A DNA stretch of 64,000 nucleotides from Escherichia coli (GTDB lineage Bacteria > Pseudomonadota > Gammaproteobacteria > Enterobacterales > Enterobacteriaceae): NCBI RefSeq assembly GCF_003018255.1, contig NZ_CP027440.1; one strand, 5' to 3'. The translations under genes were made by a program, and so were the position numbers. How positions within the stretch are numbered: the stretch's first letter is position 1; the number at the start of each line of letters is the position of its first letter. Under the pieces are notes generated by a model. It had not been told where the DNA came from, searched no databases, and was given only the letters and a program-made list of their open reading frames with translations. Positions 4,617 to 64,000 of this stretch are shown here, in pieces.

Positions 4617-6566
4617 TCAGCAACGGCTTAAATCAGCCTGCGCCTGAGCCAGTTTTTCTGCCGCCTGACGTAGCGGTTCCATCAACGGCATGGTCCGTGC
4701 TGGAGCATGAAGGCGGAATCGCTGCAACTCTGTCGCACCGACATTCAGCGCCGATTCCAGCCGATGTCGTTTGGCGGCCATTTTTGCCATTACCGCTTGT
4801 CTGTCTGCAGGCGTTACCGCTTCGTTCGGCCTGAACACAAAACGGCGTTCACAGCTCGCTTTCCAGTCGATAACCGCCTGGGTCAGATGATCACCAAAAC
4901 CTTTCACTTGCTTAACGCTCCGTCGGGTAACATCCGCTGCTGTTTCAATACCAAAGGACCGTAACGCCGCTTTACGCGCAGGGCCAACGCCGGGAATAGA
5001 GGCAACATCAATAAAAAATCCCTCCAGAAACTTCTGCTTCTGCCGTTCCCTTGCGGTGTCCTGAAGTGCTGCCAGATCGCGCTTTTCTTCTTCCGGTAAC
5101 CCAAGAATTTCGTCCTTCATTTTTTCGAGCATCGTCCGTTTGGCGATAAAACCTTCCAGCCCGCCCAACTGCTGGATCTGGCTGACTAAATGGTCATAGT
5201 CCATTTTCGCGCGATTAAACGCCTCACGGCGTTGCTGGATTTCTGCTTTGTACGCTTTGCTTGTCAGGCTGCCAATAATCCAGATAGCCGCCAGCACAGG
5301 AACCAAAATAATATAACGTGGTTCTGTCTGAAGGCCGCAAAGCAGCAGCGATAACGCTGACAGTGCGATCTCAATCAGAATGATGTATTCACGCCTTAAC
5401 AGGCCTAAAGGAAGCGGCCTGCCAGTCGGTTGGAAATGATCGGGTAATGGTAATTGCAATGCTGGCGGTGCTACTGACGCCATCACCATCGCCCAGACTT
5501 TCGCCAGCACAAAATCACCGCTGGTGGTAATGACCTCTTCGCCGAGATCAATAAAATAGATAACGCCTTGATTATCCAGAGCACACCACGGGCAGTCAGC
5601 CAAATGACCGGGATAAACATGCATTGCCGAAACGGTACATTTCTTTAACTGTTGGCGTAGTAAATCAAGTGCCGCTACCCACGCTTTTGCCGTCGGACGC
5701 CCGGTTGCCACGCCACTTTCCGTGAATGCCTGCTGAAACATGGCTTCAACATCGCCCGGTAACATCGACAGCGGAATAGATCGTGGCGGCGGTTTTAAAC
5801 CACGTCGCTGATTATCTGACGCGTAGGCATAACGGAAATGGGCAATATCCGTCTCCAGTGCATTACCCGCATCAGAGACAAGCGGTACACCGGAATAAGG
5901 ATGCCGCCCACCAAACAAGACGTGAAAAATCAGCAACGCAAGGCCAAAATTATCGTGATTCGCGGTGCGTTCAAAGCCGACAAATGATGGCAAGGTTTGT
6001 TGCTCTGGCGGCGTAAAATGCGACACGCCGACTTCGCATAAATGCAGCGTGCCATTGGCGTTAATCTGAAAGGAGTCGCTATCAATCAACACCACTTTGC
6101 TGTCGCGACCTACCATAAAGCTGTTCTGGTTTACGTCACCCACGACGTGCCCGTGCTCGTGAATCGTAGCAAAAGATGAAGCAATATTGCGCGCAACATA
6201 GAGTAGAAAATCCCACGCACAATGAGGGTAACGTTGACGACGATGTGCCGGGCTATAGATCATATGAATCGGTTCTTTACCAGAAACTTTTGGCATCATA
6301 AAACCGATTACTTTTCCGCCTCGTCCACCGTGAAGCGTTGCCTGCGGCCAGGCGACATAATTCAACAACTGCGCGTCAGCTGTCGCAGCCATAAAGGCAA
6401 GTTTGTCCTGTTTTAAGGCGGGTGGCGGCGTGTGATAAATCTTGGCGACGCTATCGACAAACTCCTCGATATCATAAACCGCGCCTTCACCGCCTTTGCC
6501 CAGTTCACAGCCTGGCGTAACGCACTCACCAGTAGCAGTATATAAAGTGGGTTTCATGGTAACCAC
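4617..6566 (-). CDS. yegI: Membrane Ser/Thr protein kinase-like protein YegI with a C-terminal helix-hairpin-helix region
   Basis: 649-aa ORF. Kinase-like N-terminus: GKGGEGAVY loop, VAKIY lysine, HVVGDVNQNSF catalytic loop, IDSDSF. Two hydrophobic helices follow (YIILIEIALSALSLLLCGL and YIILVPVLAAIWIIGSL), then a charged coiled-coil-like stretch and tandem HhH motifs (IPGVGPARKAALRSFGI, VKGFGDHLTQAV). The track start is GTG 6566; an ATG at 6557 overlaps the yegK stop as ATGA. Confidence 0.88.
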   Translation of the reverse strand: MVTMKPTLYTATGECVTPGCELGKGGEGAVYDIEEFVDSVAKIYHTPPPALKQDKLAFMAATADAQLLNYVAWPQATLHGGRGGKVIGFMMPKVSGKEPIHMIYSPAHRRQRYPHCAWDFLLYVARNIASSFATIHEHGHVVGDVNQNSFMVGRDSKVVLIDSDSFQINANGTLHLCEVGVSHFTPPEQQTLPSFVGFERTANHDNFGLALLIFHVLFGGRHPYSGVPLVSDAGNALETDIAHFRYAYASDNQRRGLKPPPRSIPLSMLPGDVEAMFQQAFTESGVATGRPTAKAWVAALDLLRQQLKKCTVSAMHVYPGHLADCPWCALDNQGVIYFIDLGEEVITTSGDFVLAKVWAMVMASVAPPALQLPLPDHFQPTGRPLPLGLLRREYIILIEIALSALSLLLCGLQTEPRYIILVPVLAAIWIIGSLTSKAYKAEIQQRREAFNRAKMDYDHLVSQIQQLGGLEGFIAKRTMLEKMKDEILGLPEEEKRDLAALQDTARERQKQKFLEGFFIDVASIPGVGPARKAALRSFGIETAADVTRRSVKQVKGFGDHLTQAVIDWKASCERRFVFRPNEAVTPADRQAVMAKMAAKRHRLESALNVGATELQRFRLHAPARTMPLMEPLRQAAEKLAQAQADLSRC

Positions 6567-53822: not shown

Positions 53823-56800
53823 ATGGACAAGGAATTACCGTGGCTGGCGGATAACGCCCAACTGGAACTGAAATATAAAAAAGGCAAAACACCACTCAGC
53901 CATCGCAATTGGCCAGGCGAACCGGTACCTGTTATCACTGAAAACATCATTCAGACACTGGGTGATGAATTGCTACAAAAAGCAGAGAAGAAAAAAAACA
54001 TTGTCTGGCGTTATGAAAACTTTTCACTGGAGTGGCAGTCCGCCATCACGCAGGCCATCAACTTGATCGGCGAACACAAACCCTCAATCACGGCCCGGAC
54101 AATGGCGGCGCTAGCCTGTATCGCGCAAAATGATAGCCAACAGTTGCTCGACGAAATCGTCCAACACGAGGGGCTGGAATATGCAACTGAGGTGGTGATT
54201 GCACGCCAGTTTATTGTACGGTGTTATGAGAGTGATCCTCTGGTAGTAACATTGCAATATCAGAACGAGGACTATGGCTATGGTTATCGCTCAGAAACCT
54301 ATAACGAATTCGATCTCCGATTGCGTAAGCATCTCTCTCTGGCAGAGGAAAGCTGCTGGCAGCGTTGCGCCGACAAACTCATTGCCGCACTGCCAGGAAT
54401 AACCAAAGTTCGCCGCCCTTTTATTGCGCTGAACCTCCCGGAAAAACCCGAAATCGCCAACGAGCTGGTAAGCCTTGAATGTTCGCAAACTCATTTTCGC
54501 TCAAAAGAGTGGTTAAAAGTTGTTGCTGATGACCCTAAGGCGGTGAAAGAACTCGCACGTTACTGGAGCCAGGATATATTTAGCGATCGAGAAGCCAGCT
54601 ACATGTCGCATGAAAACCACTTCGGCTACGCGGCCTGCGCTGCCCTTTTGCGCGAACAAGGACTGGCAGCCGTTCCGCGCCTCGCGATGTATGCACATAA
54701 AGAAGATTGCGGCAGTCTGCTGGTACAAATTAACCATCCGCAAGTCATCCGCACCTTGCTACTGGTGGCTGATAAAAACAAACCCAGCCTGCAACGTGTG
54801 GCTAAATACAGTAAAAACTTCCCCCATGCGACGCTCGCCGCACTGGCAGAACTGCTGGCGTTAAAAGCCCCCCCTGCGCGCCCTGGTTATCCCATCATCG
54901 AAGACCAAAAGCTGCCTGCACAGCAAAAAGCACGTGATGAATACTGGCATACGCTGTTACAAACGCTGATGGCATCGCAGCCACAACTGGCAGAAGAGGT
55001 GATGCCGTGGTTAAGTACTCAAGCCCGGGCAGTGCTGAATAGTTATTTATCGGCACCGCCCAAAACGGTTATTGATAGCACCGATAACAGCCAAATGCCT
55101 GAAATCCTCGTTTCACCACCGTGGCGTAGTAAGAAAAAAATGACAGCTCCACGTCTTGATTTGGCACCGCTCGAATTAACCCCGCAAGTTTACTGGCAAC
55201 CAGGCGAACAAGAGAGGCTTGCCTCCACTGAGTCTGCCCGTTATTTCAGCACGGAATCTCTTGCTGAACGCATGGAACAAAAAAGTGGACGAGTTGTATT
55301 ACAGGAACTGGGTTTTGGGGATGATGTATGGCTGTTTCTGAATTATATACTCCCCGGAAAACTGGATGCTGCACGCAATTCACTCATTGTTCAGTGGCAT
55401 TACTACCCAGGGCGGGTTGAAGAGATCATGAATGGCTGGAGCTCCCCGGAAGCTCAATTAGCAGAACAGGCGCTTCGCAGCGGTCACGTAGAAGTGTTAA
55501 TTAACATATGGGAAAATGACAGCTACTCACGTTATCGTCCGGAAAAGAGTGTCTGGAACCTGTATTTATTGGCACAGTTGCCGCGTGAGATGGCTTTGCC
55601 TTTCTGGCTACGTATCAATGAGAAAAAGCATCTGTCTGCGGGTGAGGACTATTTTCTCAGTATCTTCGGATTGGATGCTCTACCAGGTCTGCTGTTGGCT
55701 TTTTCACATCGTCCAAAAGAAACATTTCCGTTAATTTTAAATTTTGGCGCAACAGAACTGGCCCTGCCCGTTGCCCGCGTCTGGCGACGTTTCGCGGCGC
55801 AGCGTGATCTGGCCCGCCAGTGGATTTTACAATGGCCGGAACATACGGCTACTGCACTTATCCCTCTTGTCTTCACCAAACCCAGCGATAATAGCGAAGC
55901 TGCATTACTTGCCCTACGTTTACTTTACGAACAGGGACATGGTGAATTGCTGCAAACCGCGGCAAACCGCTGGCAGCGTACAGATGTATGGCCTGCCCTG
56001 GAGCATTTACTTAAACAGAGTCCAATAGAGATTTACCCGGCACGCATGCCAAAAGCCCCTGATTTCTGGCATCCGCTAATGTGGTCCAGGCCGCGCCTAA
56101 TCATTAATCATCAACTTATTACCGATGACGCTCTGGAAATTATCGGCGAAATGCTGCGCTTTACCCAGGGGGGACGTTTTCATAGCGGGCTGGAACAACT
56201 GAAAACGTTCTGCCAGCCGCAAACGCTGGCAGCTTTTGCCTGGGATCTCTTCACTGCGTGGCAACAAGCTGGTGCCCCCGCAAAAGACAACTGGGCATTT
56301 CTGGCGTTAAGTCTCTTTGGTGACGAAAGCACGGCACGGGATCTAACGACACAGATCCTCGCCTGGCCACAAGAAGGCAAATCTACCCGTGCTGTCAGTG
56401 GCCTGAACATCCTTACCCTGATGAATAATGATATGGCGCTGATACAGCTGCATCATATATCGCAACGGGCGAAATCCCGCCCCTTACGTGATAACGCGGC
56501 GGAATTTCTTCAGGTGGTCGCAGAAAATCGCGGGCTAAGCCAGGAAGAGTTAGCGGACAGATTAGTCCCAACACTGGGCCTTGATGATCCGCAGGCGTTG
56601 AGTTTTGATTTTGGTCCCCGGCAGTTTACCGTTCGCTTCGATGAAAACCTTAACCCGGTTATCTTTGATCAGCAAAACGTTCGCCAGAAAAGCGTTCCCC
56701 GGTTGCGCACCGATGACGATCAACTGAAAGCGCCCGAGGCACTGGCCCGATTAAAAGGGCTAAAAAAAGATACGACTCAGGTGAGCAAAAACCTGCTCCC

Positions 56801-57455
56801 CCGTCTTGAAGCTGCCCTGCGTACCACCCGACGCTGGTCGCTGGCAGATTTTCATTCTCTGTTTGTTAATCATCCCTTTACCCGTCTGGTTACCCAGCGA
56901 TTAATATGGGGCGTGTATCCGGCAAATGAACCGCGTCGTTTACTCAACGCCTTTCGTGTGGCCGCAGAGGGGGAGTTCTGCAATGCGCAAGATGAGCCCA
57001 TTGACCTGCCTGCGGATGCTCTGATTGGCATTGCCCACCCGTTAGAAATGACAGAAGGAATGCGCAGTGAATTTGCACAGCTTTTTGCCGATTACGAAAT
57101 TATGCCGCCTTTTCGCCAGTTGGCGCGGCGCACGGTGCTGCTCACACCTGACGAGTCAACCAGTAACAGCCTGACTCGCTGGGAAGGTAAATCCGCTACC
57201 GTTGGGCAGCTTATGGGAATGCGATACAAAGGCTGGGAGTCAGGCTATGAGGACGCATTTGTCTATGGCCTGGGCGAGTACCGGCTGGTCCTTAAGTTTT
57301 CACCCGGTTTTAACCACTACAATGTTGATAGCAAAGCGTTAATGAGCTTCCGTTCTCTTCGAGTGTACCGTGACAATAAATCCGTCACTTTTGCCGAACT
57401 TGATGTGTTTGATTTGAGTGAGGCGTTAAGCGCACCTGACGTCATTTTCCATTAA
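53823..57455 (+). CDS. yehI: DUF4132-type giant protein YehI (paralog of YehH without the WGR domain)
   Basis: 1210-aa ORF starting 9 nt after the yehH stop, with an AAGGAAAG SD. It aligns by eye to YehH from about residue 105 (LPWLA..., LRLRKHLSLAEES.W..CA.KLIAA.P, FDFGPRQFTVRFDE, RLIWGVY). Confidence 0.9.
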   Translation: MDKELPWLADNAQLELKYKKGKTPLSHRNWPGEPVPVITENIIQTLGDELLQKAEKKKNIVWRYENFSLEWQSAITQAINLIGEHKPSITARTMAALACIAQNDSQQLLDEIVQHEGLEYATEVVIARQFIVRCYESDPLVVTLQYQNEDYGYGYRSETYNEFDLRLRKHLSLAEESCWQRCADKLIAALPGITKVRRPFIALNLPEKPEIANELVSLECSQTHFRSKEWLKVVADDPKAVKELARYWSQDIFSDREASYMSHENHFGYAACAALLREQGLAAVPRLAMYAHKEDCGSLLVQINHPQVIRTLLLVADKNKPSLQRVAKYSKNFPHATLAALAELLALKAPPARPGYPIIEDQKLPAQQKARDEYWHTLLQTLMASQPQLAEEVMPWLSTQARAVLNSYLSAPPKTVIDSTDNSQMPEILVSPPWRSKKKMTAPRLDLAPLELTPQVYWQPGEQERLASTESARYFSTESLAERMEQKSGRVVLQELGFGDDVWLFLNYILPGKLDAARNSLIVQWHYYPGRVEEIMNGWSSPEAQLAEQALRSGHVEVLINIWENDSYSRYRPEKSVWNLYLLAQLPREMALPFWLRINEKKHLSAGEDYFLSIFGLDALPGLLLAFSHRPKETFPLILNFGATELALPVARVWRRFAAQRDLARQWILQWPEHTATALIPLVFTKPSDNSEAALLALRLLYEQGHGELLQTAANRWQRTDVWPALEHLLKQSPIEIYPARMPKAPDFWHPLMWSRPRLIINHQLITDDALEIIGEMLRFTQGGRFHSGLEQLKTFCQPQTLAAFAWDLFTAWQQAGAPAKDNWAFLALSLFGDESTARDLTTQILAWPQEGKSTRAVSGLNILTLMNNDMALIQLHHISQRAKSRPLRDNAAEFLQVVAENRGLSQEELADRLVPTLGLDDPQALSFDFGPRQFTVRFDENLNPVIFDQQNVRQKSVPRLRTDDDQLKAPEALARLKGLKKDTTQVSKNLLPRLEAALRTTRRWSLADFHSLFVNHPFTRLVTQRLIWGVYPANEPRRLLNAFRVAAEGEFCNAQDEPIDLPADALIGIAHPLEMTEGMRSEFAQLFADYEIMPPFRQLARRTVLLTPDESTSNSLTRWEGKSATVGQLMGMRYKGWESGYEDAFVYGLGEYRLVLKFSPGFNHYNVDSKALMSFRSLRVYRDNKSVTFAELDVFDLSEALSAPDVIFH

Positions 57456-57516
57456 AAACACAGCGGGCAGTGATGCAACTGCCCGTTATCAACACGACTT
57501 ACCAGCGGGGAAAGCG

Positions 57517-57870
57517 ATGATCGTGCAAAAAGAGCTGGTTGCTATTTACGATTATGAGGTCCCTGTACCTGAAGATCCGTTTTCCTTCAGACTTGAGATC
57601 CATAAATGCTCTGAATTATTTACAGGTTCCGTCTATCGACTGGAGCGATTCCGGCTACGTCCAACATTTCATCAACGTGATCGAGAAGATGCTGACCCGC
57701 TAATAAATGATGCGTTGATTTATATAAGAGATGAGTGTATTGATGAGCGGAAATTACGAGGTGAATCACCTGAAACTGTAATAGCAATTTTTAATCGTAA
57801 ACTACAGAATATATTCAACCAACTAATAGAATATTACTTTATTAAAGGGGGAAGCGGTTTTCCCCCTTAG
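57517..57870 (+). CDS. yehK: Small protein of unknown function YehK (3' end runs into the zor terminator hairpin)
   Basis: 117-aa ORF (MIVQKELVAIYDYEVPVPEDPF...). The last codons (IKGGSGFPP*) are encoded by the GGGGGAAGCGGTTTTCCCCC hairpin. Confidence 0.8.
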   Translation: MIVQKELVAIYDYEVPVPEDPFSFRLEIHKCSELFTGSVYRLERFRLRPTFHQRDREDADPLINDALIYIRDECIDERKLRGESPETVIAIFNRKLQNIFNQLIEYYFIKGGSGFPP

Positions 57871-57889
57871 TTGCGTTTCAATTTGCCCA

Positions 57890-57979
57890 TTACTTCAACA
57901 AATCAATCAACCGTAACAGAGCCACTAATAGCTCCAGTACAGCAATGAGCACGGTTAACTTTTGTGTCAGCGTGTCCAT
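57890..57979 (-). CDS. zorO: Zor-family type I toxin, 29 aa: MDTLTQKLTVLIAVLELLVALLRLIDLLK (copy 1; O/P assignment not determined)
   Basis: My own minus-strand translation, with an AAGGAG SD 5 nt upstream. The peptide matches ZorO of the zor-orz family (first described in O157:H7) as I recall it. A TATAAT (minus strand, 58166-58161) lies about 175 nt upstream, consistent with the long 5' UTR reported for zorO. Confidence 0.8.
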   Translation of the reverse strand: MDTLTQKLTVLIAVLELLVALLRLIDLLK

Positions 57980-58217
57980 CCGCTCTCCTTATTAAGGAGC
58001 GCAACACCAGCACCTTACCCTTACACTGCCTGTCGACACTGGTTTACGTTTGTTGAGTCGCCATGTTGCACTCCGGATCAGAGCACTACCTGCGGCACCA
58101 CCCGTCCGGTAGCCAGGACTTGAAATGGGTTCGATCCGGCGCAACTTCCCAACAGTCAGGATTATAAATCTCATTATCTTAATTGCAACACGGTCCAGCG
58201 GTGGTTATAATTCGTTC

Positions 58218-58297
58218 GTTGAGATGCCATGTTGCACTATCAGTAACTTAACATCAAAGTAGTAAATAAAAGAACCTGCCTCACCAGCAGGTTCTTT
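58218..58297 (+). ncRNA. orzO: Orz-family antitoxin sRNA, copy 1 (ends approximate)
   Basis: TTGCAA (58183-58188), a 17-nt spacer and TATAAT (58206-58211). The 5' segment GTTGAGATGCCATGTTGCACT is complementary to the zor 5' UTR at 58052-58072. Terminator AGAACCTGCCTCACCAGCAGGTTCT plus TTTTATTTT. Confidence 0.72.
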
Positions 58298-58497
58298 TAT
58301 TTTCTGCGATCTACTTTCCAGATATTTTTCGCCAATAGCCCACCATAAATATTCACATCCCGGCCAAATAGTACGTTGATTATAAAATCGATGAATTTAT
58401 AAATAAAAATGAGTTATATGATGAATTAATAAAAACAGTAATCATTTTATTAAAGGGGGAAACGGTATTCCCCCTTAGATGCGTTTCAATTTGCCCG

Positions 58498-58587
58498 TTA
58501 CTTCAACAAATCAATCAACCGTAACAGAGCCACTAATAGCTCCAGTACAGCAATGAGCACGGTTAACTTTTGTGTCAGCGTGTCCAT
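58498..58587 (-). CDS. zorP: Zor-family type I toxin, 29 aa, identical peptide (copy 2)
   Basis: The 90-nt ORF is identical to copy 1, with the same SD and the same promoter arrangement (minus-strand TATAAT at 58774-58769). Confidence 0.8.
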   Translation of the reverse strand: MDTLTQKLTVLIAVLELLVALLRLIDLLK

Positions 58588-58825
58588 CCGCTCTCCTTAT
58601 TAAGGAGCGCAACACCAGCACCTTACCCTTACACTGCCTGTCGATACTGGTTTACGTATGTTGGTACGAAACGTTGCTCTCCGGATCAGGGCACCGCCTG
58701 CGGCACCACCCGTCCAGCAGCCAGGACTTAAAATTGGTCCGATCCGGCACAACCTCCCAACGGGCAGGATTATAAATCTCATTCACTGAATTGCAATGGA
58801 GTGTGGATATGGTTATAATTTATTC

Positions 58826-58908
58826 GTTGGTACGAAATGTTGCACAATCAGCAAGTTAGCGTCATTGTAGTAAATAAAAGAACCTGCCTCACCAGCAGGT
58901 TTTTTTAT
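58826..58908 (+). ncRNA. orzP: Orz-family antitoxin sRNA, copy 2 (ends approximate)
   Basis: TTGCAA (58791-58796), a 17-nt spacer and TATAAT (58814-58819). The 5' segment GTTGGTACGAAATGTTGCACA is complementary to the zor 5' UTR at 58660-58680. Terminator AGAACCTGCCTCACCAGCAGGTT plus TTTTTTATTT. Confidence 0.72.
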
Positions 58909-59017
58909 TTACTGTGATCTGCTTTCCAGATATTTTTCGCTCAAACAACTAATGCGGCAAACATTTATTGCGCGTAAAATATCGTTTATTTCATTAATAC
59001 ATTTCAGGGATGAATAT

Positions 59018-60106
59018 ATGTCACCGCAGAATAATCATCTGCAGCGTCCGCCTGCCGCTGTGTTATACGCCGATGAACTGGCAAAATTAAAACAAAATGA
59101 TCACGCACCTTGCCCGCCCGGTTGGCAGTTAAGTTTGCCTGCGGCCCGCGCTTTTATCCTTGGCGATAGCGCGCAAAATATTAGCCGTAAAGTCGTGATC
59201 AGTCCCTCCGCTGTCGAACGCATGTTAGTCACTCTCGCTACCGGGCGCGGTTTGATGTTGGTGGGGGAACCTGGCACCGCAAAATCGCTCCTGTCTGAAT
59301 TACTGGCAACCGCTATTAGCGGCGATGCCGGGTTAACCATCCAGGGCGGCGCATCTACCACCGAAGATCAAATCAAGTACGGCTGGAACTACGCCCTGCT
59401 TATCAACCATGGTCCGTCAACGGAAGCGCTGGTCCCTGCCCCGCTTTACCAGGGAATGCGCGACGGCAAAATTGTCCGTTTTGAAGAGATAACGCGTACA
59501 CCGCTGGAAGTACAAGACTGTCTGTTAGGTATGCTTTCTGACAGGGTAATGACGGTGCCGGAACTCACCGGTGAAGCCAGTCAGCTCTATGCGCGAGAAG
59601 GCTTTAATATTATTGCCACTGCCAATACCCGCGATCGCGGCGTCAATGAGATGAGTGCCGCGCTAAAGCGTCGCTTCGATTTTGAAACCGTCTTTCCGAT
59701 TATGGATTTCGCCCAGGAGCTGGAACTGGTCGCCAGTGCTTCGGCGCGTTTGCTGGCCCATAGCGGTATTCCGCATAAAGTGCCTGACGCGGTACTGGAG
59801 TTACTGGTCCGCACCTTCCGCGATCTGCGTGCCAACGGCGAAAAGAAAACGTCAATGGATACCCTGACGGCAATTATGTCCACCGCTGAAGCCGTGAACG
59901 TGGCCCACGCAGTGGGCGTCCGCGCCTGGTTTTTAGCGAATCGCGCAGGTGAGCCAGCCGATCTGGTGGACTGTATTGCCGGAACCATCGTCAAAGATAA
60001 CGAAGAAGATCGCGCTCGTCTGCGCCGTTACTTCGAACAGCGAGTCGCCACACATAAAGAAGCTCACTGGCAGGCTTATTATCAAGCTCGCCACCGCCTG
60101 CCGTGA
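59018..60106 (+). CDS. yehL: MoxR-class AAA+ ATPase YehL (AAA_5-type)
   Basis: Track ORF 58952..60106. The start is ATG 59018 (MSPQNNHLQRPPAAV), giving 362 aa. Walker A GEPGTAKS, Walker B-like IVRFEEITR, sensor-1 IIATANTRD, and an arginine region SAALKRRFDF. Confidence 0.9.
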   Translation: MSPQNNHLQRPPAAVLYADELAKLKQNDHAPCPPGWQLSLPAARAFILGDSAQNISRKVVISPSAVERMLVTLATGRGLMLVGEPGTAKSLLSELLATAISGDAGLTIQGGASTTEDQIKYGWNYALLINHGPSTEALVPAPLYQGMRDGKIVRFEEITRTPLEVQDCLLGMLSDRVMTVPELTGEASQLYAREGFNIIATANTRDRGVNEMSAALKRRFDFETVFPIMDFAQELELVASASARLLAHSGIPHKVPDAVLELLVRTFRDLRANGEKKTSMDTLTAIMSTAEAVNVAHAVGVRAWFLANRAGEPADLVDCIAGTIVKDNEEDRARLRRYFEQRVATHKEAHWQAYYQARHRLP

Positions 60107-60116
60107 GGAAAGATGC

Positions 60117-62396
60117 ATGAGCGAGCCGTTAATTGTCGGCATCCGGCATCATAGTCCGGCCTGCGCCCGGCTGGTGAAATCGTTAATCGAAAGCCAGCGG
60201 CCACGATACGTGTTGATTGAAGGCCCGGCTGATTTTAATGACCGGGTAGACGAACTGTTTTTAGCCCACCAGCTTCCGGTAGCTATTTACAGTTATTGCC
60301 AGTATCAGGACGGTGCAGCCCCCGGGCGTGGTGCCTGGACGCCATATGCTGAATTTTCGCCGGAGTGGCAGGCGCTACAAGCCGCTCGTCGTATTCAGGC
60401 ACAAACTTACTTCATCGATTTGCCTTGCTGGGCGCAGAGTGAAGAAGAGGACGATTCGCCTGATACGCAAGAGGAAAGCCAGACCTTGCTGCTGCGTGCC
60501 ACCCGCATGGATAACAGCGACACCCTGTGGGATCACTTGTTCGAAGATGAAAGCCAGCAAACTGCATTACCCTCTGCACTGGCGCACTATTTTGCACAAC
60601 TGCGGGGCGATTCCCCCGGAGATGCTCTCAATCGTCAGCGCGAAGACTTTATGGCCCGCTGGATTGGTTGGGCGATGCAGCAAAACAATGGCGACGTGTT
60701 AGTCGTCTGCGGTGGCTGGCACGCTTCTGCACTGGCAAAAATGTGGCGCGAATGCCCGCAGGAAATTAACACGCCGGAATTGCCCTCGCTGGCAGATGCC
60801 GTTACAGGTTGTTATCTCACCCCCTACAGTGAAAAGCGCCTTGATGTGCTGGCAGGATACCTTTCCGGTATGCCTGCCCCGGTCTGGCAAAACTGGTGCT
60901 GGCGGTGGGGCTTGCAGCAGGCAGGTGAACAACTGCTGAAAACGGTTCTTACCCGTTTGCGCCAGCACCACTTGCCTGCTTCAACAGCGGATATGGCTGC
61001 CGCTCATCTGCATGCGATGGCACTGGCACAGTTGCGTGGTCATACACTACCGTTACGCACTGACTGGCTGGATGCCATAGCAGGCTCGCTGATTAAAGAA
61101 GCCCTGAATGCGCCGTTGCCGTGGAGCTATCGCGGCGTTATTCATCCCGATACCGATCCGATTCTGCTAACGTTGATAGACACATTAGCGGGTGACGGAT
61201 TCGGTAAACTTGCCCCCTCTACGCCACAGCCGCCTCTGCCAAAAGATGTCACCTGCGAACTGGAACGTACAGGAATCTCTTTTCCGGCGGAGCTTACTTT
61301 AAATCGCTTTACCCCCGATGGACTGGCGCAAAGTCAGGTGTTACATCGGCTGGTAATACTGGAGATCCCAGGGGTTGTGCGCCAGCAGGGAAGTACACTG
61401 ACACTTGCAGGCAACGGTGAAGAACGCTGGAAATTAACCCGCCCGCTTAGCCAACATGCGGCATTAATTGAGGCCGCCTGCTTTGGTGCCACACTCCAGG
61501 AAGCCGCACGCAATAAATTAGAAGCCGATATGCTGGACGCGGGTGGAATCGGCAGTATCACCACATGTCTTAGCCAGGCGGCGTTAGCGGGTCTGGCGTC
61601 CTTCAATCAACAATTACTGGAGCAACTCACATTATTAATCGCCCAGGAAAATCAGTTTGCCGAAATGGGCCAGGCGCTGGAAGTGCTATATGCCTTATGG
61701 CGGCTGGATGAAATTAGCGGTATGCAGGGCGCGCAGATATTACAAACGACATTATGCGCGGCCATCGATCGCACGCTGTGGCTATGTGAATCCAACGGCA
61801 GACCGGATGAAAAGGAGTTTCACGCTCACCTGCATAGCTGGCAAGCGCTTTGCCATATCCTGCGCGATCTACATAGCGGCGTTAATTTACCCGGCGTTTC
61901 TCTTTCTGCGGCGGTAGCCTTACTGGAGCGACGCAGTCAGGCGATTCATGCCCCGGCGCTGGATCGCGGCGCGGCACTTGGCGCACTGATGCGTCTGGAA
62001 CATCCCAACGCCAGTGCCGAAGCGGCGCTGACAATGCTGGTGCAATTATCCCCGACACAATCCGGCGAGGCGCTGCACGGTTTGCTGGCATTAGCCCGTC
62101 ATCAACTGGCCTGTCAGCCGGTATTTATCGCCGGTTTCAGCAGTCATTTAAATCAACTGAGTGATGCCGATTTTATCAATGCCCTGCCCGATTTACGCGC
62201 GGCGATGGCCTGGCTACCACCACGAGAACGCGGGACGCTGGCGCATCAGGTGCTTGAGCATTATCAACTGGTGCAACTTCCCGTTTCGGCACTGCAAATG
62301 CCGTTGCATTGTCCACCACAAGACATTGCACATCATCAACAACTCGAACAGCAGGCACTGGCATCGCTGCAACACTGGGGAGTTTTCCATGTCTGA
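60117..62396 (+). CDS. yehM: Large protein of unknown function YehM
   Basis: Track ORF 59949..62396. The start is ATG 60117, which is 10 nt after the yehL stop and preceded by a GAGGAAAG SD (MSEPLIVGIRHHSPACARLV...). This gives 759 aa. The body is mostly Leu/Ala-rich and helical. Confidence 0.88.
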   Translation: MSEPLIVGIRHHSPACARLVKSLIESQRPRYVLIEGPADFNDRVDELFLAHQLPVAIYSYCQYQDGAAPGRGAWTPYAEFSPEWQALQAARRIQAQTYFIDLPCWAQSEEEDDSPDTQEESQTLLLRATRMDNSDTLWDHLFEDESQQTALPSALAHYFAQLRGDSPGDALNRQREDFMARWIGWAMQQNNGDVLVVCGGWHASALAKMWRECPQEINTPELPSLADAVTGCYLTPYSEKRLDVLAGYLSGMPAPVWQNWCWRWGLQQAGEQLLKTVLTRLRQHHLPASTADMAAAHLHAMALAQLRGHTLPLRTDWLDAIAGSLIKEALNAPLPWSYRGVIHPDTDPILLTLIDTLAGDGFGKLAPSTPQPPLPKDVTCELERTGISFPAELTLNRFTPDGLAQSQVLHRLVILEIPGVVRQQGSTLTLAGNGEERWKLTRPLSQHAALIEAACFGATLQEAARNKLEADMLDAGGIGSITTCLSQAALAGLASFNQQLLEQLTLLIAQENQFAEMGQALEVLYALWRLDEISGMQGAQILQTTLCAAIDRTLWLCESNGRPDEKEFHAHLHSWQALCHILRDLHSGVNLPGVSLSAAVALLERRSQAIHAPALDRGAALGALMRLEHPNASAEAALTMLVQLSPTQSGEALHGLLALARHQLACQPVFIAGFSSHLNQLSDADFINALPDLRAAMAWLPPRERGTLAHQVLEHYQLVQLPVSALQMPLHCPPQDIAHHQQLEQQALASLQHWGVFHV

Positions 62397-63525
62397 ACTG
62401 AACGATCTTCTGACCACCCGTGAGCTACAACGCTGGCGATTAATTCTTGGCGAAGCGGCAGAAACGACGCTTTGTGGGCTGGATGACAACGCCCGGCAGA
62501 TAGACCACGCGATGGAGTGGCTGTATGGGCACGATCCTGAACGGTTCCAGCGTGGTGAACGCTCCGGTGGATTAGGTTGCTCAAATCTCACCCCCCCTGA
62601 GTGGATCAACAGTATTCACACGCTGTTTCCGCAACAGGTGATTGAACGGCTGGAAAGCGATGCCGTACTGCGCTACGGCATTGAAGATGTGGTGACGAAT
62701 CTCGACGTGCTGGAACGTATGCAACCGTCTGAAAGCCTGCTACGCGCCGTTTTGCACACCAAACATCTGATGAATCCCGAAGTACTGGCTGCCGCCCGCC
62801 GGATAGTACGCCAGGTTGTTGAAGAAATTATGGCTCGACTGGCAAAGGAAGTTCGTCAGGCTTTTTCTGGTGTCCGCGATCGCCGCCGTCGCTCATTTAT
62901 TCCACTGGCGCGTAATTTCGATTTCAAAAGTACGCTGCGTGCCAACCTGCAACACTGGCATCCGCAACACGGCAAGTTGTATATCGAATCCCCCCGCTTT
63001 AACAGCCGCATTAAGCGCCATAGCGATCAATGGCAACTGGTCTTACTGGTTGATCAAAGCGGATCGATGGTTGACTCGGTGATCCACTCAGCGGTGATGG
63101 CGGCCTGTTTATGGCAGTTACCCGGCATTCGTACCCATCTGGTGGCGTTTGACACCAGCGTGGTTGATCTCACGGCAGACGTTGCCGATCCGGTAGAGTT
63201 ATTAATGAAAGTACAACTGGGCGGCGGGACCAATATCGCCAGTGCCGTGGAGTATGGTCGGCAACTTATTGAACAACCTGCAAAAAGTGTCATTATCCTC
63301 GTGAGCGATTTCTATGAAGGTGGTTCATCATCATTGCTGACGCATCAGGTGAAAAAGTGTGTCCAGAGCGGCATCAAAGTGCTGGGACTGGCGGCGCTCG
63401 ATAGCACCGCAACACCTTGCTATGACCGCGATATGGCCCAGGCACTGGTTAATGTCGGTGCACAAATAGCCGCCATGACGCCGGGCGAACTGGCGACCTG
63501 GCTTGCGGAGAATCTTCAGTCATGA
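62389..63525 (+). CDS. yehP: von Willebrand factor A (MIDAS) protein YehP
   Basis: Track ORF 62161..63525. The start is ATG 62389, overlapping the yehM stop (ATGTCTGA), giving 378 aa. MIDAS residues: LLVDQSGSM, GGGTNIASA, ILVSDFYEGG. Confidence 0.9.
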   Translation: MSELNDLLTTRELQRWRLILGEAAETTLCGLDDNARQIDHAMEWLYGHDPERFQRGERSGGLGCSNLTPPEWINSIHTLFPQQVIERLESDAVLRYGIEDVVTNLDVLERMQPSESLLRAVLHTKHLMNPEVLAAARRIVRQVVEEIMARLAKEVRQAFSGVRDRRRRSFIPLARNFDFKSTLRANLQHWHPQHGKLYIESPRFNSRIKRHSDQWQLVLLVDQSGSMVDSVIHSAVMAACLWQLPGIRTHLVAFDTSVVDLTADVADPVELLMKVQLGGGTNIASAVEYGRQLIEQPAKSVIILVSDFYEGGSSSLLTHQVKKCVQSGIKVLGLAALDSTATPCYDRDMAQALVNVGAQIAAMTPGELATWLAENLQS

Positions 63526-64000
63526 ATTCACTACGTCCGGAATTATTAGAACTGACACCACAGGCACTGACGGCGTTAAGCAATGCCGGTTTTGTTAAGC
63601 GCAGCCTTAAAGAACTGGAAAATGGCAACGTCCCGGAAATCAGTCATGAGAACGGCGCTTTAATCGCCACCTTCAGTGACGGTGTCCGCACCCAGCTGGC
63701 GAACGGCCAGGCACTGAAAGAGGCTCAGTGCAGCTGCGGGGCCAGCGGCATGTGCCGCCATCGCGTGATGCTGGTTTTAAGTTATCAGCGACTTTGCGCC
63801 ACCACCCAGCCTACGGAAAAAGAAGAAGAGTGGGATCCGGCAATCTGGCTGGAAGAACTGGCTACCCTGCCCGATGCCACCCGCAAACGCGCACAGGCGC
63901 TGGTCGCTAAAGGCATCACCATTGAGTTGTTCTGTACGCCGGGCGAAATTCCCTCTGCCCGCTTACCGATGAGCGATGTACGTTTTTATTCCCGCAGCAG
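63522..64000 (+). CDS. yehQ: SWIM zinc-finger protein YehQ, N-terminal 159 codons (continues past the window end)
   Basis: The ATG at 63522 overlaps the yehP stop (ATGA). My translation is MNSLRPELLELTPQALTALSNAGFVKRSLKELENG... with SWIM CxC-x7-CxH (CSCGASGMCRH, nt 63729-63761). The frame stays open to nt 64000. It is absent from the ORF track because no stop lies inside the window. Confidence 0.85.
   Translation, partial: MNSLRPELLELTPQALTALSNAGFVKRSLKELENGNVPEISHENGALIATFSDGVRTQLANGQALKEAQCSCGASGMCRHRVMLVLSYQRLCATTQPTEKEEEWDPAIWLEELATLPDATRKRAQALVAKGITIELFCTPGEIPSARLPMSDVRFYSRS

What the first reader, a model, noticed from the sequence alone, without database searches (positions are those of the whole stretch)
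57838..58940. Two tandem zor-orz type I toxin-antitoxin loci inserted between yehK and yehL
Seen in sequence:
- Each ~500-bp unit encodes, on the minus strand, an identical 29-codon hydrophobic ORF (MDTLTQKLTVLIAVLELLVALLRLIDLLK). The ORF has a strong SD and a ~175-nt leader.
- Each unit also encodes a divergent ~80-nt plus-strand RNA ending in a strong terminator.

Established (from memory): this is the zorO-orzO / zorP-orzP family, described in E. coli O157:H7 and absent from K-12.

The pair sits exactly at the break between the yehHIK and yehLMPQ halves of the cluster. It is oriented against the flanking genes, so its terminators and antisense transcription could insulate or modulate read-through from yehK into yehL.
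Basis: partly seen in the sequence, partly recalled or inferred. Interest (0 to 1): 0.6.

Follow-up and report, generated by a model that had tools for sequence, protein, structure and literature searches.

The report
Known zor-orz toxin-antitoxin tandem pair
This is the already well-studied zor/orz small-toxin/small-RNA-antitoxin locus of Escherichia coli, present here as two tandem copies at its usual chromosomal site, so it is real but ordinary.

Summary
Two about 500-bp units, 608 bp apart, lie between yehK and yehL. Each encodes on the minus strand the 29-aa peptide MDTLTQKLTVLIAVLELLVALLRLIDLLK, identical to published ZorO. Each has a 174-nt leader and a hairpin-sequestered AAGGAG. Each also has a divergent plus-strand sRNA that scores 89-90 bits against Rfam OrzO-P (threshold 60).

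It is the known zor/orz type I toxin-antitoxin family at its canonical site (Fozo 2010; Wen 2014, 2017; Shore 2024).

- The pair is not zorO+zorP. The yehK-proximal unit is the published third type (zorQ/orzQ-like, but encoding the ZorO peptide). The yehL-proximal unit is zorO/orzO (98% identical to O157).
- K-12 is not empty. It keeps both promoters and an intact orzP gene, which is published as the expressed OrzPmg sRNA.
- "Inserted" has the wrong polarity. The locus sits at the same site in E. whittamii and lies beside yehL or yehK in two other Escherichia species, so K-12 is a deletion derivative.
- The read-through insulation idea is untested. The orz terminators are co-oriented with yeh, and one remains in K-12.

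Small extras: the Q-then-O order is rare (16 of 5,426 complete genomes), and cognate-only pairing is predicted. Novelty: already known.

The parts
57845..57868 (-). zor unit 1 transcription terminator hairpin (palindrome AAGGGGGAAGCGGTTTTCCCCCTT); in this strain it is overlapped by the extended 3' end of yehK
   Evidence: 9-bp G/C-rich stem, -14.6 kcal/mol, followed by UUUAAUAAA. From start site to terminator is about 310 nt, matching the published zorO transcripts of about 310 nt (PMC3919570).
57890..57979 (-). zor toxin ORF, unit 1 (29 aa, ZorO sequence)
   Evidence: The peptide is identical to the published ZorO peptide (PMC6669753).
57980..58153 (-). zor unit 1 5' UTR, 174 nt. RBS AAGGAG at 57985-57990 (+164..+169) is held in a hairpin. 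The Orz pairing site is at 58052-58071 (+83..+102), inside the published EAP region. The GGAGTG motif lies just upstream of it.
   Evidence: Published landmarks from PMC5397157.
58161..58211 (.). Divergent promoter block, unit 1: zor -10 TATAAT at 58161-58166(-); a single self-complementary -35 TTGCAA at 58183-58188 that serves both strands; orz -10 TATAAT at 58206-58211(+)
   Evidence: The hexamers match those reported as more than 99% conserved (PMC11264685).
58218..58305 (+). orz antitoxin sRNA, unit 1 (zorQ/orzQ recognition type; 5' end GUUGAGAUGCCAUGUUGCAC; intrinsic terminator 58261-58305)
   Evidence: Rfam RF02083, 90.2 bits, at 58225-58298. Fold. Pairing 6(1)13 with its own zor UTR, -34.4 kcal/mol. 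Type assigned. The 5' end is inferred by alignment to OrzO.
58333..58445 (.). A/T-rich spacer between the two units
   Evidence: it lies outside the repeated segments.
58453..58476 (-). zor unit 2 terminator hairpin
58498..58587 (-). zor toxin ORF, unit 2 (29 aa, ZorO sequence; nucleotide-identical to the unit 1 ORF)
58588..58761 (-). zor unit 2 5' UTR, 174 nt (RBS 58593-58598; pairing site 58660-58679, +83..+102; zorO type)
   Evidence: The unit is 98.2% identical to the O157 zorO/orzO unit.
58769..58819 (.). Divergent promoter block, unit 2: zor -10 at 58769-58774(-); shared -35 TTGCAA at 58791-58796; orz -10 at 58814-58819(+)
58826..58913 (+). orzO-type antitoxin sRNA, unit 2 (5' end GUUGGUACGAAAUGUUGC with V1 = GAA; terminator 58869-58913)
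   Evidence: Rfam RF02083, 88.9 bits, at 58833-58906. Eighteen continuous pairs with the unit 2 UTR, -31.3 kcal/mol. V1 definition from PMC3919570.
57517..57870 (+). yehK, left flank. It is 117 aa here because the stop codon TAG is TAC at 57835-57837, so the ORF runs into the zor terminator.
59018..60106 (+). yehL, right flank (AAA_5 / MoxR-like ATPase)

Best explanation
The region holds two tandem copies of the chromosomal zor/orz type I toxin-antitoxin module of Escherichia, at its canonical site between yehK and yehL.

How each unit works:
- It transcribes a zor mRNA of about 310 nt leftward. The mRNA has a 174-nt leader and encodes a 29-aa inner-membrane peptide that is toxic when overproduced.
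- It transcribes an Orz sRNA of about 86 nt rightward from a back-to-back promoter.
- By analogy with zorO of EDL933, the full-length leader hides the RBS in a hairpin and is poorly translated.
- 5' processing (delta-28) exposes the +73..+102 'EAP' standby region and allows translation.
- The first 18-20 nt of Orz pair with +83..+102 of that region. This blocks ribosome loading and triggers RNase III-dependent decay.

In this window the yehK-proximal unit carries the third published recognition type (zorQ/orzQ-like) but encodes the ZorO peptide. The yehL-proximal unit is the zorO/orzO type. The two units therefore make the same toxin under two antitoxins that are predicted not to cross-react.

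Shown here: sequence identity, family matches, anatomy, pairing potential and distribution. Taken from the literature: toxicity, RNase III dependence and processing, all shown for EDL933 zorO/orzO. Inferred: that unit 1 behaves the same way.
For: - Toxin: two identical ORFs equal to published ZorO (PMC6669753).
- Antitoxin: Rfam OrzO-P at 90.2 and 88.9 bits against a gathering score of 60.
- Promoters: -35 TTGCAA and -10 TATAAT on both strands of both units, as reported to be more than 99% conserved.
- Leader: same length as in O157. The RBS sits in a hairpin in the predicted fold, z = -2.4.
- Cognate pairing at UTR +83..+102: unit 1 is 6(1)13 (19 of 20 paired, -34.4 kcal/mol); unit 2 has 18 continuous pairs (-31.3 kcal/mol). 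Both meet the experimental rule of at least 15 continuous pairs, or at least 17 with one gap.
- Non-cognate pairs have runs of at most 9 and energies of -16.0 and -23.4 kcal/mol.
- Unit 2 is 98.2% identical to the O157 zorO/orzO unit and 99.6% to the single unit of strain AF40. Unit 1 is 98.6% identical to units encoding ZorQ (A20S) in 3 of 3 sampled genomes.
- The window region is 100% identical to E. coli 2017.09.02CC, with the order metG-yehH-yehI-yehK-[zor/orz x2]-yehL-M-P-Q.
- Census: the zor leader plus ORF is in 3,397 of 5,426 complete genomes at 5,229 places. A tandem junction is in 1,818 genomes. This is broadly in line with the published 42% two-copy, 25% one-copy and 30% orz-only.
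Against: - No expression or toxicity data exist for this strain.
- The Orz and zor 5' ends are placed by alignment to mapped EDL933 ends, not measured here.
- The zorQ/orzQ reference sequence (Table S21 of PMC11264685) could not be retrieved because the supplement is truncated. The Q assignment therefore rests on linkage to the A20S peptide variant and on the paper's statement that only three locus types exist.
- Unit 1 has one internal mismatch and one G-U pair in its duplex, and no Q-type pair has been tested experimentally as far as I found.
- RefSeq annotates none of these genes.
Confidence: 0.95

Rival explanations
1. The pair is the same zorO-orzO / zorP-orzP duplicate as in E. coli O157:H7 EDL933/Sakai.
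For: The family, site, tandem layout and unit length are the same. The window aligns end to end with the O157 locus at 89.9%.
Against: - O157's yehK-proximal zorO unit matches the window's yehL-proximal unit at 98.2%. No window unit matches O157 zorP better than 91.3%.
- Neither Orz has the OrzP V1 triplet ACG, and neither peptide has T3S.
- Unit 1's recognition sequence, GUUGAGAUGCC..., is a different type.
Confidence: 0.02
2. The main role of the array is transcriptional insulation. Its terminators and convergent zor transcription would block or tune read-through from yehHIK into yehLMPQ.
For: - Two strong intrinsic terminators (the orz terminators) face the yehK-to-yehL direction.
- zor transcription converges on yehK, and in this strain the zor terminator overlaps the yehK 3' end.
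Against: - It is pure inference; no transcript data are available here.
- The effective terminators belong to orz, which is co-oriented with yeh rather than 'against the flanking genes'.
- K-12-type genomes that lost zor still keep one orz terminator, so termination does not depend on the toxin units.
- The module's conserved features are the toxin ORF, the RBS hairpin and co-varying pairing sites. These are what a toxin-antitoxin module needs, not what a terminator needs.
- The two papers found with yehK and yehL that were opened for this gave nothing on read-through.
Confidence: 0.1
3. One or both units are decaying, non-functional remnants, like the K-12 orz-only state.
For: About 30-34% of E. 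coli genomes have lost the toxin gene. A single chromosomal zorO-orzO copy gave no phenotype in MG1655 (PMC9860968).
Against: Every defined element is intact in both units: promoters, 174-nt leader, RBS hairpin, full ORF, pairing site, sRNA and terminators. The ORF plus RBS hairpin (125 nt) is 100% identical between units, while the rest of the unit differs at 15% of positions.
Confidence: 0.03

Closest known systems
zorO-orzO of E. coli O157:H7 EDL933 (Fozo 2010, PMC2887945; Wen 2014, PMC3919570; Wen 2017, PMC5397157)
   Same: Window unit 2 has an identical peptide and an identical Orz 5' 18 nt (V1 = GAA). Its zor target sequence, promoter hexamers, 174-nt leader and RBS hairpin are also the same. 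The whole unit is 98.2% identical, and it lies in the same yehK-yehL interval.
   Different: In O157 the O unit is yehK-proximal and is followed by zorP/orzP. Here it is yehL-proximal and joined directly to the yehL flank, as in single-O genomes such as AF40.
zorQ/orzQ, the third locus type (Shore et al. 2024, PMC11264685)
   Same: Window unit 1 is 98.6% identical to units that encode the ZorQ (A20S) peptide. It shares their Orz 5' end and UTR target, and it occupies the same yehK-proximal position.
   Different: Unit 1 encodes Ala20 (the ZorO peptide), not Ser20. The published reference sequence itself was not available for comparison. No Q-type pair has been tested experimentally, as far as the papers read here show.
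zorP-orzP of EDL933 and the orphan OrzPmg of K-12 MG1655
   Same: Same family, same promoter block and same terminator.
   Different: This type is not present in the window: there is no ACG V1 and no T3S peptide. K-12 keeps only orzP plus a short 5' stub of the zor leader.
tisB/istR-1, shoB/ohsC and dinQ/agrB (divergently encoded type I toxin-antitoxin pairs of E. coli)
   Same: The sRNA is encoded divergently. Its 5' end pairs far upstream of the RBS in a long, processed 5' UTR that carries a standby-type site. The toxin is a small hydrophobic membrane peptide. orz1 gives a sub-threshold Rfam hit to ohsC_RNA (35.4 bits against a threshold of 50).
   Different: The peptides and sRNA sequences are unrelated and the loci differ. 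tisB is under LexA control. None of these forms tandem arrays with different recognition types.

Membership tests
zor/orz type I toxin-antitoxin family | 29-aa hydrophobic Zor peptide (ZorO = MDTLTQKLTVLIAVLELLVALLRLIDLLK, or a single-residue variant) | tested here: met
   Both ORFs are identical to the published ZorO peptide (PMC6669753 section 4.3).
zor/orz type I toxin-antitoxin family | Divergently encoded Orz sRNA of about 85 nt that matches Rfam OrzO-P (RF02083) | tested here: met
   90.2 and 88.9 bits against a gathering score of 60, with full-length model matches.
zor/orz type I toxin-antitoxin family | The Orz 5' end is complementary to the zor 5' UTR inside +73..+102, with at least 15 continuous pairs or at least 17 pairs with one gap | tested here: met
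   Unit 1 is 6(1)13 and unit 2 has 18 continuous pairs, both at +83..+102. The rule is from PMC3919570.
zor/orz type I toxin-antitoxin family | Long (174-nt) 5' UTR with the RBS AAGGAG at +164..+169 sequestered in a stem | tested here: met
   The -10-to-ATG distance is identical to O157. The RBS is paired with an upstream CUCCUU in the predicted fold. The start site itself was not measured.
zor/orz type I toxin-antitoxin family | Conserved promoter hexamers, -35 TTGCAA and -10 TATAAT, for both genes | tested here: met
   compared with Table 3 of PMC11264685.
zor/orz type I toxin-antitoxin family | Chromosomal site between yehK (yehI) and yehL | tested here: met
zor/orz type I toxin-antitoxin family | Zor overproduction is toxic; the cognate Orz rescues; repression needs RNase III but not Hfq | not testable with these tools
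   Shown only for EDL933 zorO/orzO.
zorO/orzO locus type | OrzO 5' end GUUGGUACGAAAUGUUGC with V1 = GAA, and the matching zorO target | tested here: met
   Met by unit 2 only.
zorP/orzP locus type | OrzP V1 = ACG, and the ZorP peptide with T3S | tested here: not met
   Neither unit meets it. The best identity of a window unit to the O157 P unit is 91.3%.
zorQ/orzQ locus type | Third recognition type, linked to the common ZorQ (A20S) peptide variant | tested here: inconclusive
   Unit 1 shares the recognition sequences of units carrying A20S in 3 of 3 sampled genomes and is 98.6% identical to them. However, it encodes A20 itself, and the paper's reference sequence and 650-bit criterion could not be applied.

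The most novel reading that the evidence does not exclude
The yehK-yehL array behaves as a recombination-shuffled cassette system.

- The unit order is fixed as Q, then O, then P.
- An invariant toxin plus RBS module is kept: 125 nt are identical between the two units here.
- The recognition module of about 20 bp (sRNA 5' end and UTR target) diversifies by compensatory change, so that co-resident units stay orthogonal.
- The window's Q-O array would be a rare recombinant (16 of 5,426 genomes) that places one identical toxin under two independent antitoxins.
- The single self-complementary -35 hexamer shared by the divergent promoters would make toxin and antitoxin initiation mutually exclusive at each unit.
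Probability: 0.3. Interest if true: 0.25.

Novelty: already known. Interest (0 to 1): 0.1.

Why it matters
It matters little beyond correct annotation. RefSeq/PGAP leaves both toxin genes and both sRNAs unannotated in every record inspected, so scans will keep 'rediscovering' this locus.

Some practical points follow:
- The locus should be labelled a zorQ-type plus zorO-type array, not zorO/zorP.
- K-12 should not be used as a clean 'no-locus' control, because it expresses the orphan OrzP.
- The rare Q-O combination, with identical toxins and predicted orthogonal antitoxins, could serve as a natural test bed for the published 15/17-nt pairing rule.

Tried and rejected
- Pfam, NCBIfam and PADLOC give nothing for the Zor peptide or YehK, and PADLOC gives nothing for YehI, YehL, YehM or YehP. 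There is therefore no support for linking the array to a known defence system.
- I tried to retrieve the zorQ/orzQ reference from the supplement of PMC11264685. The file is truncated and holds only the table titles. As a substitute I used a 31-mer carrying the A20S codon as a megablast probe and read three of the hits.
- The scan of one genome per species with a degenerate zor ORF pattern found five loci. Two of them, L014 (Shigella flexneri SFBU0723) and L016 (E. coli ECMA0423), show yeh proteins broken into many low-identity fragments. They look like error-rich assemblies and were not used. The scan cannot show absence from species whose zor differs from the pattern; Fozo 2010 reports the locus in E. 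fergusonii, which the scan did not return.
- I considered a fourth, new recognition type for unit 1. I rejected it because the same type is common (HBUT-L, MZ1211, STEC434, S21, OkiPb01697, EM06-18-14, GCEC19) and is linked to ZorQ.
- I considered gene conversion to explain the nucleotide-identical ORFs. I did not pursue it, because ORF divergence between types is only 1-3 nt anyway, so the identity is not statistically remarkable.
- The '51 records at 99% or more' from the 1,701-nt query is not a count of Q-O arrays, since the best place can be partial. The junction-specific query gives 16.
- A literature search on yehK and yehL for read-through or operon data found three papers; the one opened held nothing useful.
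Full report
**1. What is in the sequence**

The interval 57838-58940 contains two direct repeat units spaced 608 bp apart. The segments 57833-58132 and 58441-58740 are 92% identical, and 58202-58332 and 58810-58940 are 86% identical.

Each unit carries these features:
- A minus-strand 29-codon ORF, at 57890-57979 and 58498-58587, with the same product, MDTLTQKLTVLIAVLELLVALLRLIDLLK.
- An AAGGAG Shine-Dalgarno sequence 5 nt upstream of the ATG.
- A terminator-like G/C hairpin about 20 nt after the stop codon.
- A back-to-back promoter block of -35 TTGCAA and -10 TATAAT hexamers on both strands.
- On the plus strand, a match to the Rfam family OrzO-P (RF02083) at 58225-58298 (90.2 bits, E=1.4e-14) and 58833-58906 (88.9 bits, E=2.7e-14). 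The gathering score is 60.

The sRNAs were taken from a G 7 nt after the -10 hexamer to the end of the terminator. They fold into a small 5' stem-loop and a 16-19-bp terminator stem followed by a U run (z = -6.1 and -4.9).

**2. Identity of the window**

The 1,701-bp interval is 100% identical to the chromosome of E. coli 2017.09.02CC. The annotated gene order there is metG, yehH (DUF4132), yehI, yehK, a gap, yehL, yehM, yehP, yehQ. None of the RefSeq records inspected annotates the small ORFs or the sRNAs.

**3. Family**

- The peptide equals the ZorO sequence printed in PMC6669753.
- Fozo et al. 2010 described the tandem z3289/z3290 genes 'between yehI and yehL' in EDL933. They detected sRNAs of about 85 nt by northern blot and reported long 5' UTRs.
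- Wen et al. 2014 showed that ZorO is toxic and that OrzO rescues through its 5' 18 nt. Repression needs RNase III but not Hfq. The 3-nt V1 region (GAA in OrzO, ACG in OrzP) sets specificity. Repression needs at least 15 continuous pairs, or at least 17 pairs with one gap.
- Wen et al. 2017 defined the 174-nt UTR, the sequestered RBS at +164..+169, delta-28 processing and the EAP standby region at +73..+102.

In the window, the distance from the zor -10 hexamer to the ATG is the same as in O157:H7. This places the start site so that the UTR is 174 nt. The RBS is paired with an upstream CUCCUU in the predicted fold of the 314-nt mRNA.

The first 20 nt of each Orz pair with +83..+102 of its own zor leader:
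- Unit 1: 6(1)13, meaning 19 of 20 paired, at -34.4 kcal/mol.
- Unit 2: 18 continuous pairs, at -31.3 kcal/mol.

Every sequence-level defining feature of the family is met. Toxicity and nuclease dependence cannot be tested here.

**4. Which types the two units are**

I compared the window with O157:H7 strain Z866.
- O157's yehK-proximal zorO/orzO unit corresponds to the window's yehL-proximal unit 2. They are 98.2% identical, with identical recognition sequences and V1 = GAA.
- O157's zorP/orzP unit (V1 = ACG, peptide T3S) has no counterpart in the window.

Unit 1 has a different recognition pair: Orz GUUGAGAUGCCAUGUUGCAC and UTR ...GUGCAACAUGGCGACUCAAC. Shore et al. 2024 report exactly three locus types, O, P and Q, and name ZorQ (A20S) as a common product of the third type. 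Their reference sequence was not retrievable.

As a substitute I probed the 5,426 complete genomes with a 31-mer carrying the A20S codon. It gave 300 hits. In three of three loci read, the A20S ORF sits in a unit with unit 1's recognition sequences, and that unit is 98.6% identical to unit 1. Unit 1 is thus the zorQ/orzQ type but encodes the ZorO peptide.

A sub-variant of the Q-type sRNA (GUUGGGGCGCC...) occurs in E2348/69 and N58.

**5. Predicted orthogonality**

I built a 4x4 matrix of Orz 5' ends against zor targets for the O, P, Q and Q' types.
- Only cognate pairs, plus Q with Q', meet the published rule.
- Non-cognate pairs have runs of at most 9 and energies of -15.7 to -26.8 kcal/mol. 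Cognate pairs fall between -31 and -33 kcal/mol.
- This agrees with the experimental finding that OrzP does not repress zorO.

Within the window, the divergence between the two units is concentrated where specificity lies:

| Segment | Identity between units |
|---|---|
| Pairing site | 65% |
| Orz 5' end | 75% |
| Orz middle | 70% |
| ORF plus RBS hairpin (125 nt) | 100% |
| Whole unit | 88.7% |

**6. Distribution and polarity**

- The zor leader plus ORF is present in 3,397 of 5,426 complete E. coli genomes, at 5,229 places. That implies roughly 1,830 two-copy and 1,565 one-copy genomes.
- A tandem junction is present in 1,818 genomes.
- This is broadly in line with the published 42%, 25% and 30% for two-copy, one-copy and orz-only genomes.

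Arrangements seen in the loci I read:
- Q-O: the window.
- Q-P: HBUT-L, MZ1211, STEC434, S21, OkiPb01697, EM06-18-14, GCEC19.
- O-P: O157, JNEC-KY204, ECOR29.
- Single O: AF40.
- Single P: AR435.
- Single Q': E2348/69, N58.
- orzP only: K-12.

The order along yehK to yehL is always Q before O before P. The window's Q-O junction occurs at 99% identity or more in only 16 genomes. Hits at 96-97% are Q-P, and hits at 94-95% are O-P.

K-12 retains the promoter block, a short 5' stub of the zor leader, and an orz gene identical to O157 orzP. Shore et al. showed that this sRNA, OrzPmg, is expressed.

Outside E. coli:
- E. whittamii has an O-P tandem between yehK and yehL.
- Escherichia sp. E1V33 has an O unit next to yehL.
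- Escherichia sp. MOD1-EC7003 has a P unit next to yehK.
- Fozo 2010 lists E. fergusonii.

The locus and its O/P split are therefore old in the genus. The K-12 state is a deletion, and 'inserted ... absent from K-12' misstates the history.

**7. The insulation idea**

Only zor is antiparallel to the yeh genes. The two strong terminators that a yehK read-through transcript would meet belong to orz, and they point the same way as yeh. The zor terminator palindrome also forms on the plus strand, but without a good U tract.

Every population state, K-12 included, keeps at least one orz terminator. The proposed comparison of strains with and without the locus would therefore not isolate the effect. 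Nothing in the literature I could search addresses it. It remains a possible side effect, not an explanation of the element.

**8. Verdict**

This is a correctly spotted but already well-characterised element at its textbook location. The only additions are descriptive:
- the type assignment (Q-type plus O-type, not O plus P);
- the rarity of that combination;
- the predicted orthogonality;
- a strain-lineage yehK stop-loss that runs the ORF into the zor terminator;
- the observation that both divergent promoters use one self-complementary -35 hexamer.

Interest is low.

Noticed in passing
window 57835-57837 (yehK stop codon); yehK 57517-57870: yehK is 117 aa here, against 105-106 aa in other strains. 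Its stop codon TAG is TAC, so the ORF reads 11 codons further, through the zor unit 1 terminator hairpin. RefSeq then calls it 'hypothetical protein'. The exact 31-mer with this change is in 225 of 5,426 complete E. coli genomes. The yehK 3' end varies generally: 101, 105 or 106 aa, and it is frameshifted in E2348/69 and N58.
   Followed up: partly
window 58183-58188 and 58791-58796: The -35 hexamer TTGCAA is its own reverse complement. The same six base pairs serve as the -35 for both the zor promoter (minus strand, 16-nt spacer) and the orz promoter (plus strand, 17-nt spacer). This suggests that toxin and antitoxin initiation could be mutually exclusive at each unit. I found no discussion of this in the text of the papers read.
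   Followed up: no
window 57890-58014 vs 58498-58622: The ORF plus RBS hairpin (125 nt) is 100% identical at the nucleotide level between the two units, whereas the remaining 370 nt differ at 15% of positions. The O157 zorO ORF differs from both window ORFs at two synonymous sites, so local homogenisation (gene conversion) within this lineage is possible but not shown.
   Followed up: partly
window 58212-58700 (orz unit 1 through the zor unit 2 pairing site): The Q-type-then-O-type arrangement is rare. It is found at 99% identity or more in 16 of 5,426 complete genomes, against about 1,818 genomes with any tandem junction. In all arrays read, the unit order from yehK to yehL is Q before O before P. 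This is consistent with unequal recombination trimming a longer array.
   Followed up: partly
L007 (N58) and L008 (E2348/69), between yehK and the zor unit: These strains carry a single Q-like unit with a variant Orz 5' end (GUUGGGGCGCCAUGUUGCAU). They also have an extra segment of about 120-200 bp between yehK and the zor terminator that is absent from the window. Their yehK is annotated as a frameshifted pseudogene.
   Followed up: no
window 58218-58302: orz unit 1 also gives a sub-threshold Rfam match to ohsC_RNA (RF02495, 35.4 bits against a gathering score of 50, E=0.007), mostly through the terminator half. This hints at a distant relation or convergence between the Orz and OhsC antitoxins.
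   Followed up: no
L021 (GCEC19) unit 1; L018 (E. whittamii) unit 2: Further single-residue Zor variants were seen: A13T in a Q-type unit of E. coli GCEC19, and Q6R in the P-type unit of E. whittamii.
   Followed up: no
window 53823-64000 (yehI, yehK, yehL, yehM, yehP, yehQ): The flanking yeh cluster encodes two DUF4132 proteins, an AAA_5/MoxR-like ATPase (YehL, with a weak bpMoxR match), a DUF5682 protein, a vWA protein and a SWIM zinc-finger protein. None of YehI, YehK, YehL, YehM or YehP matches any PADLOC defence model, and the cluster's function remains unknown.
   Followed up: partly
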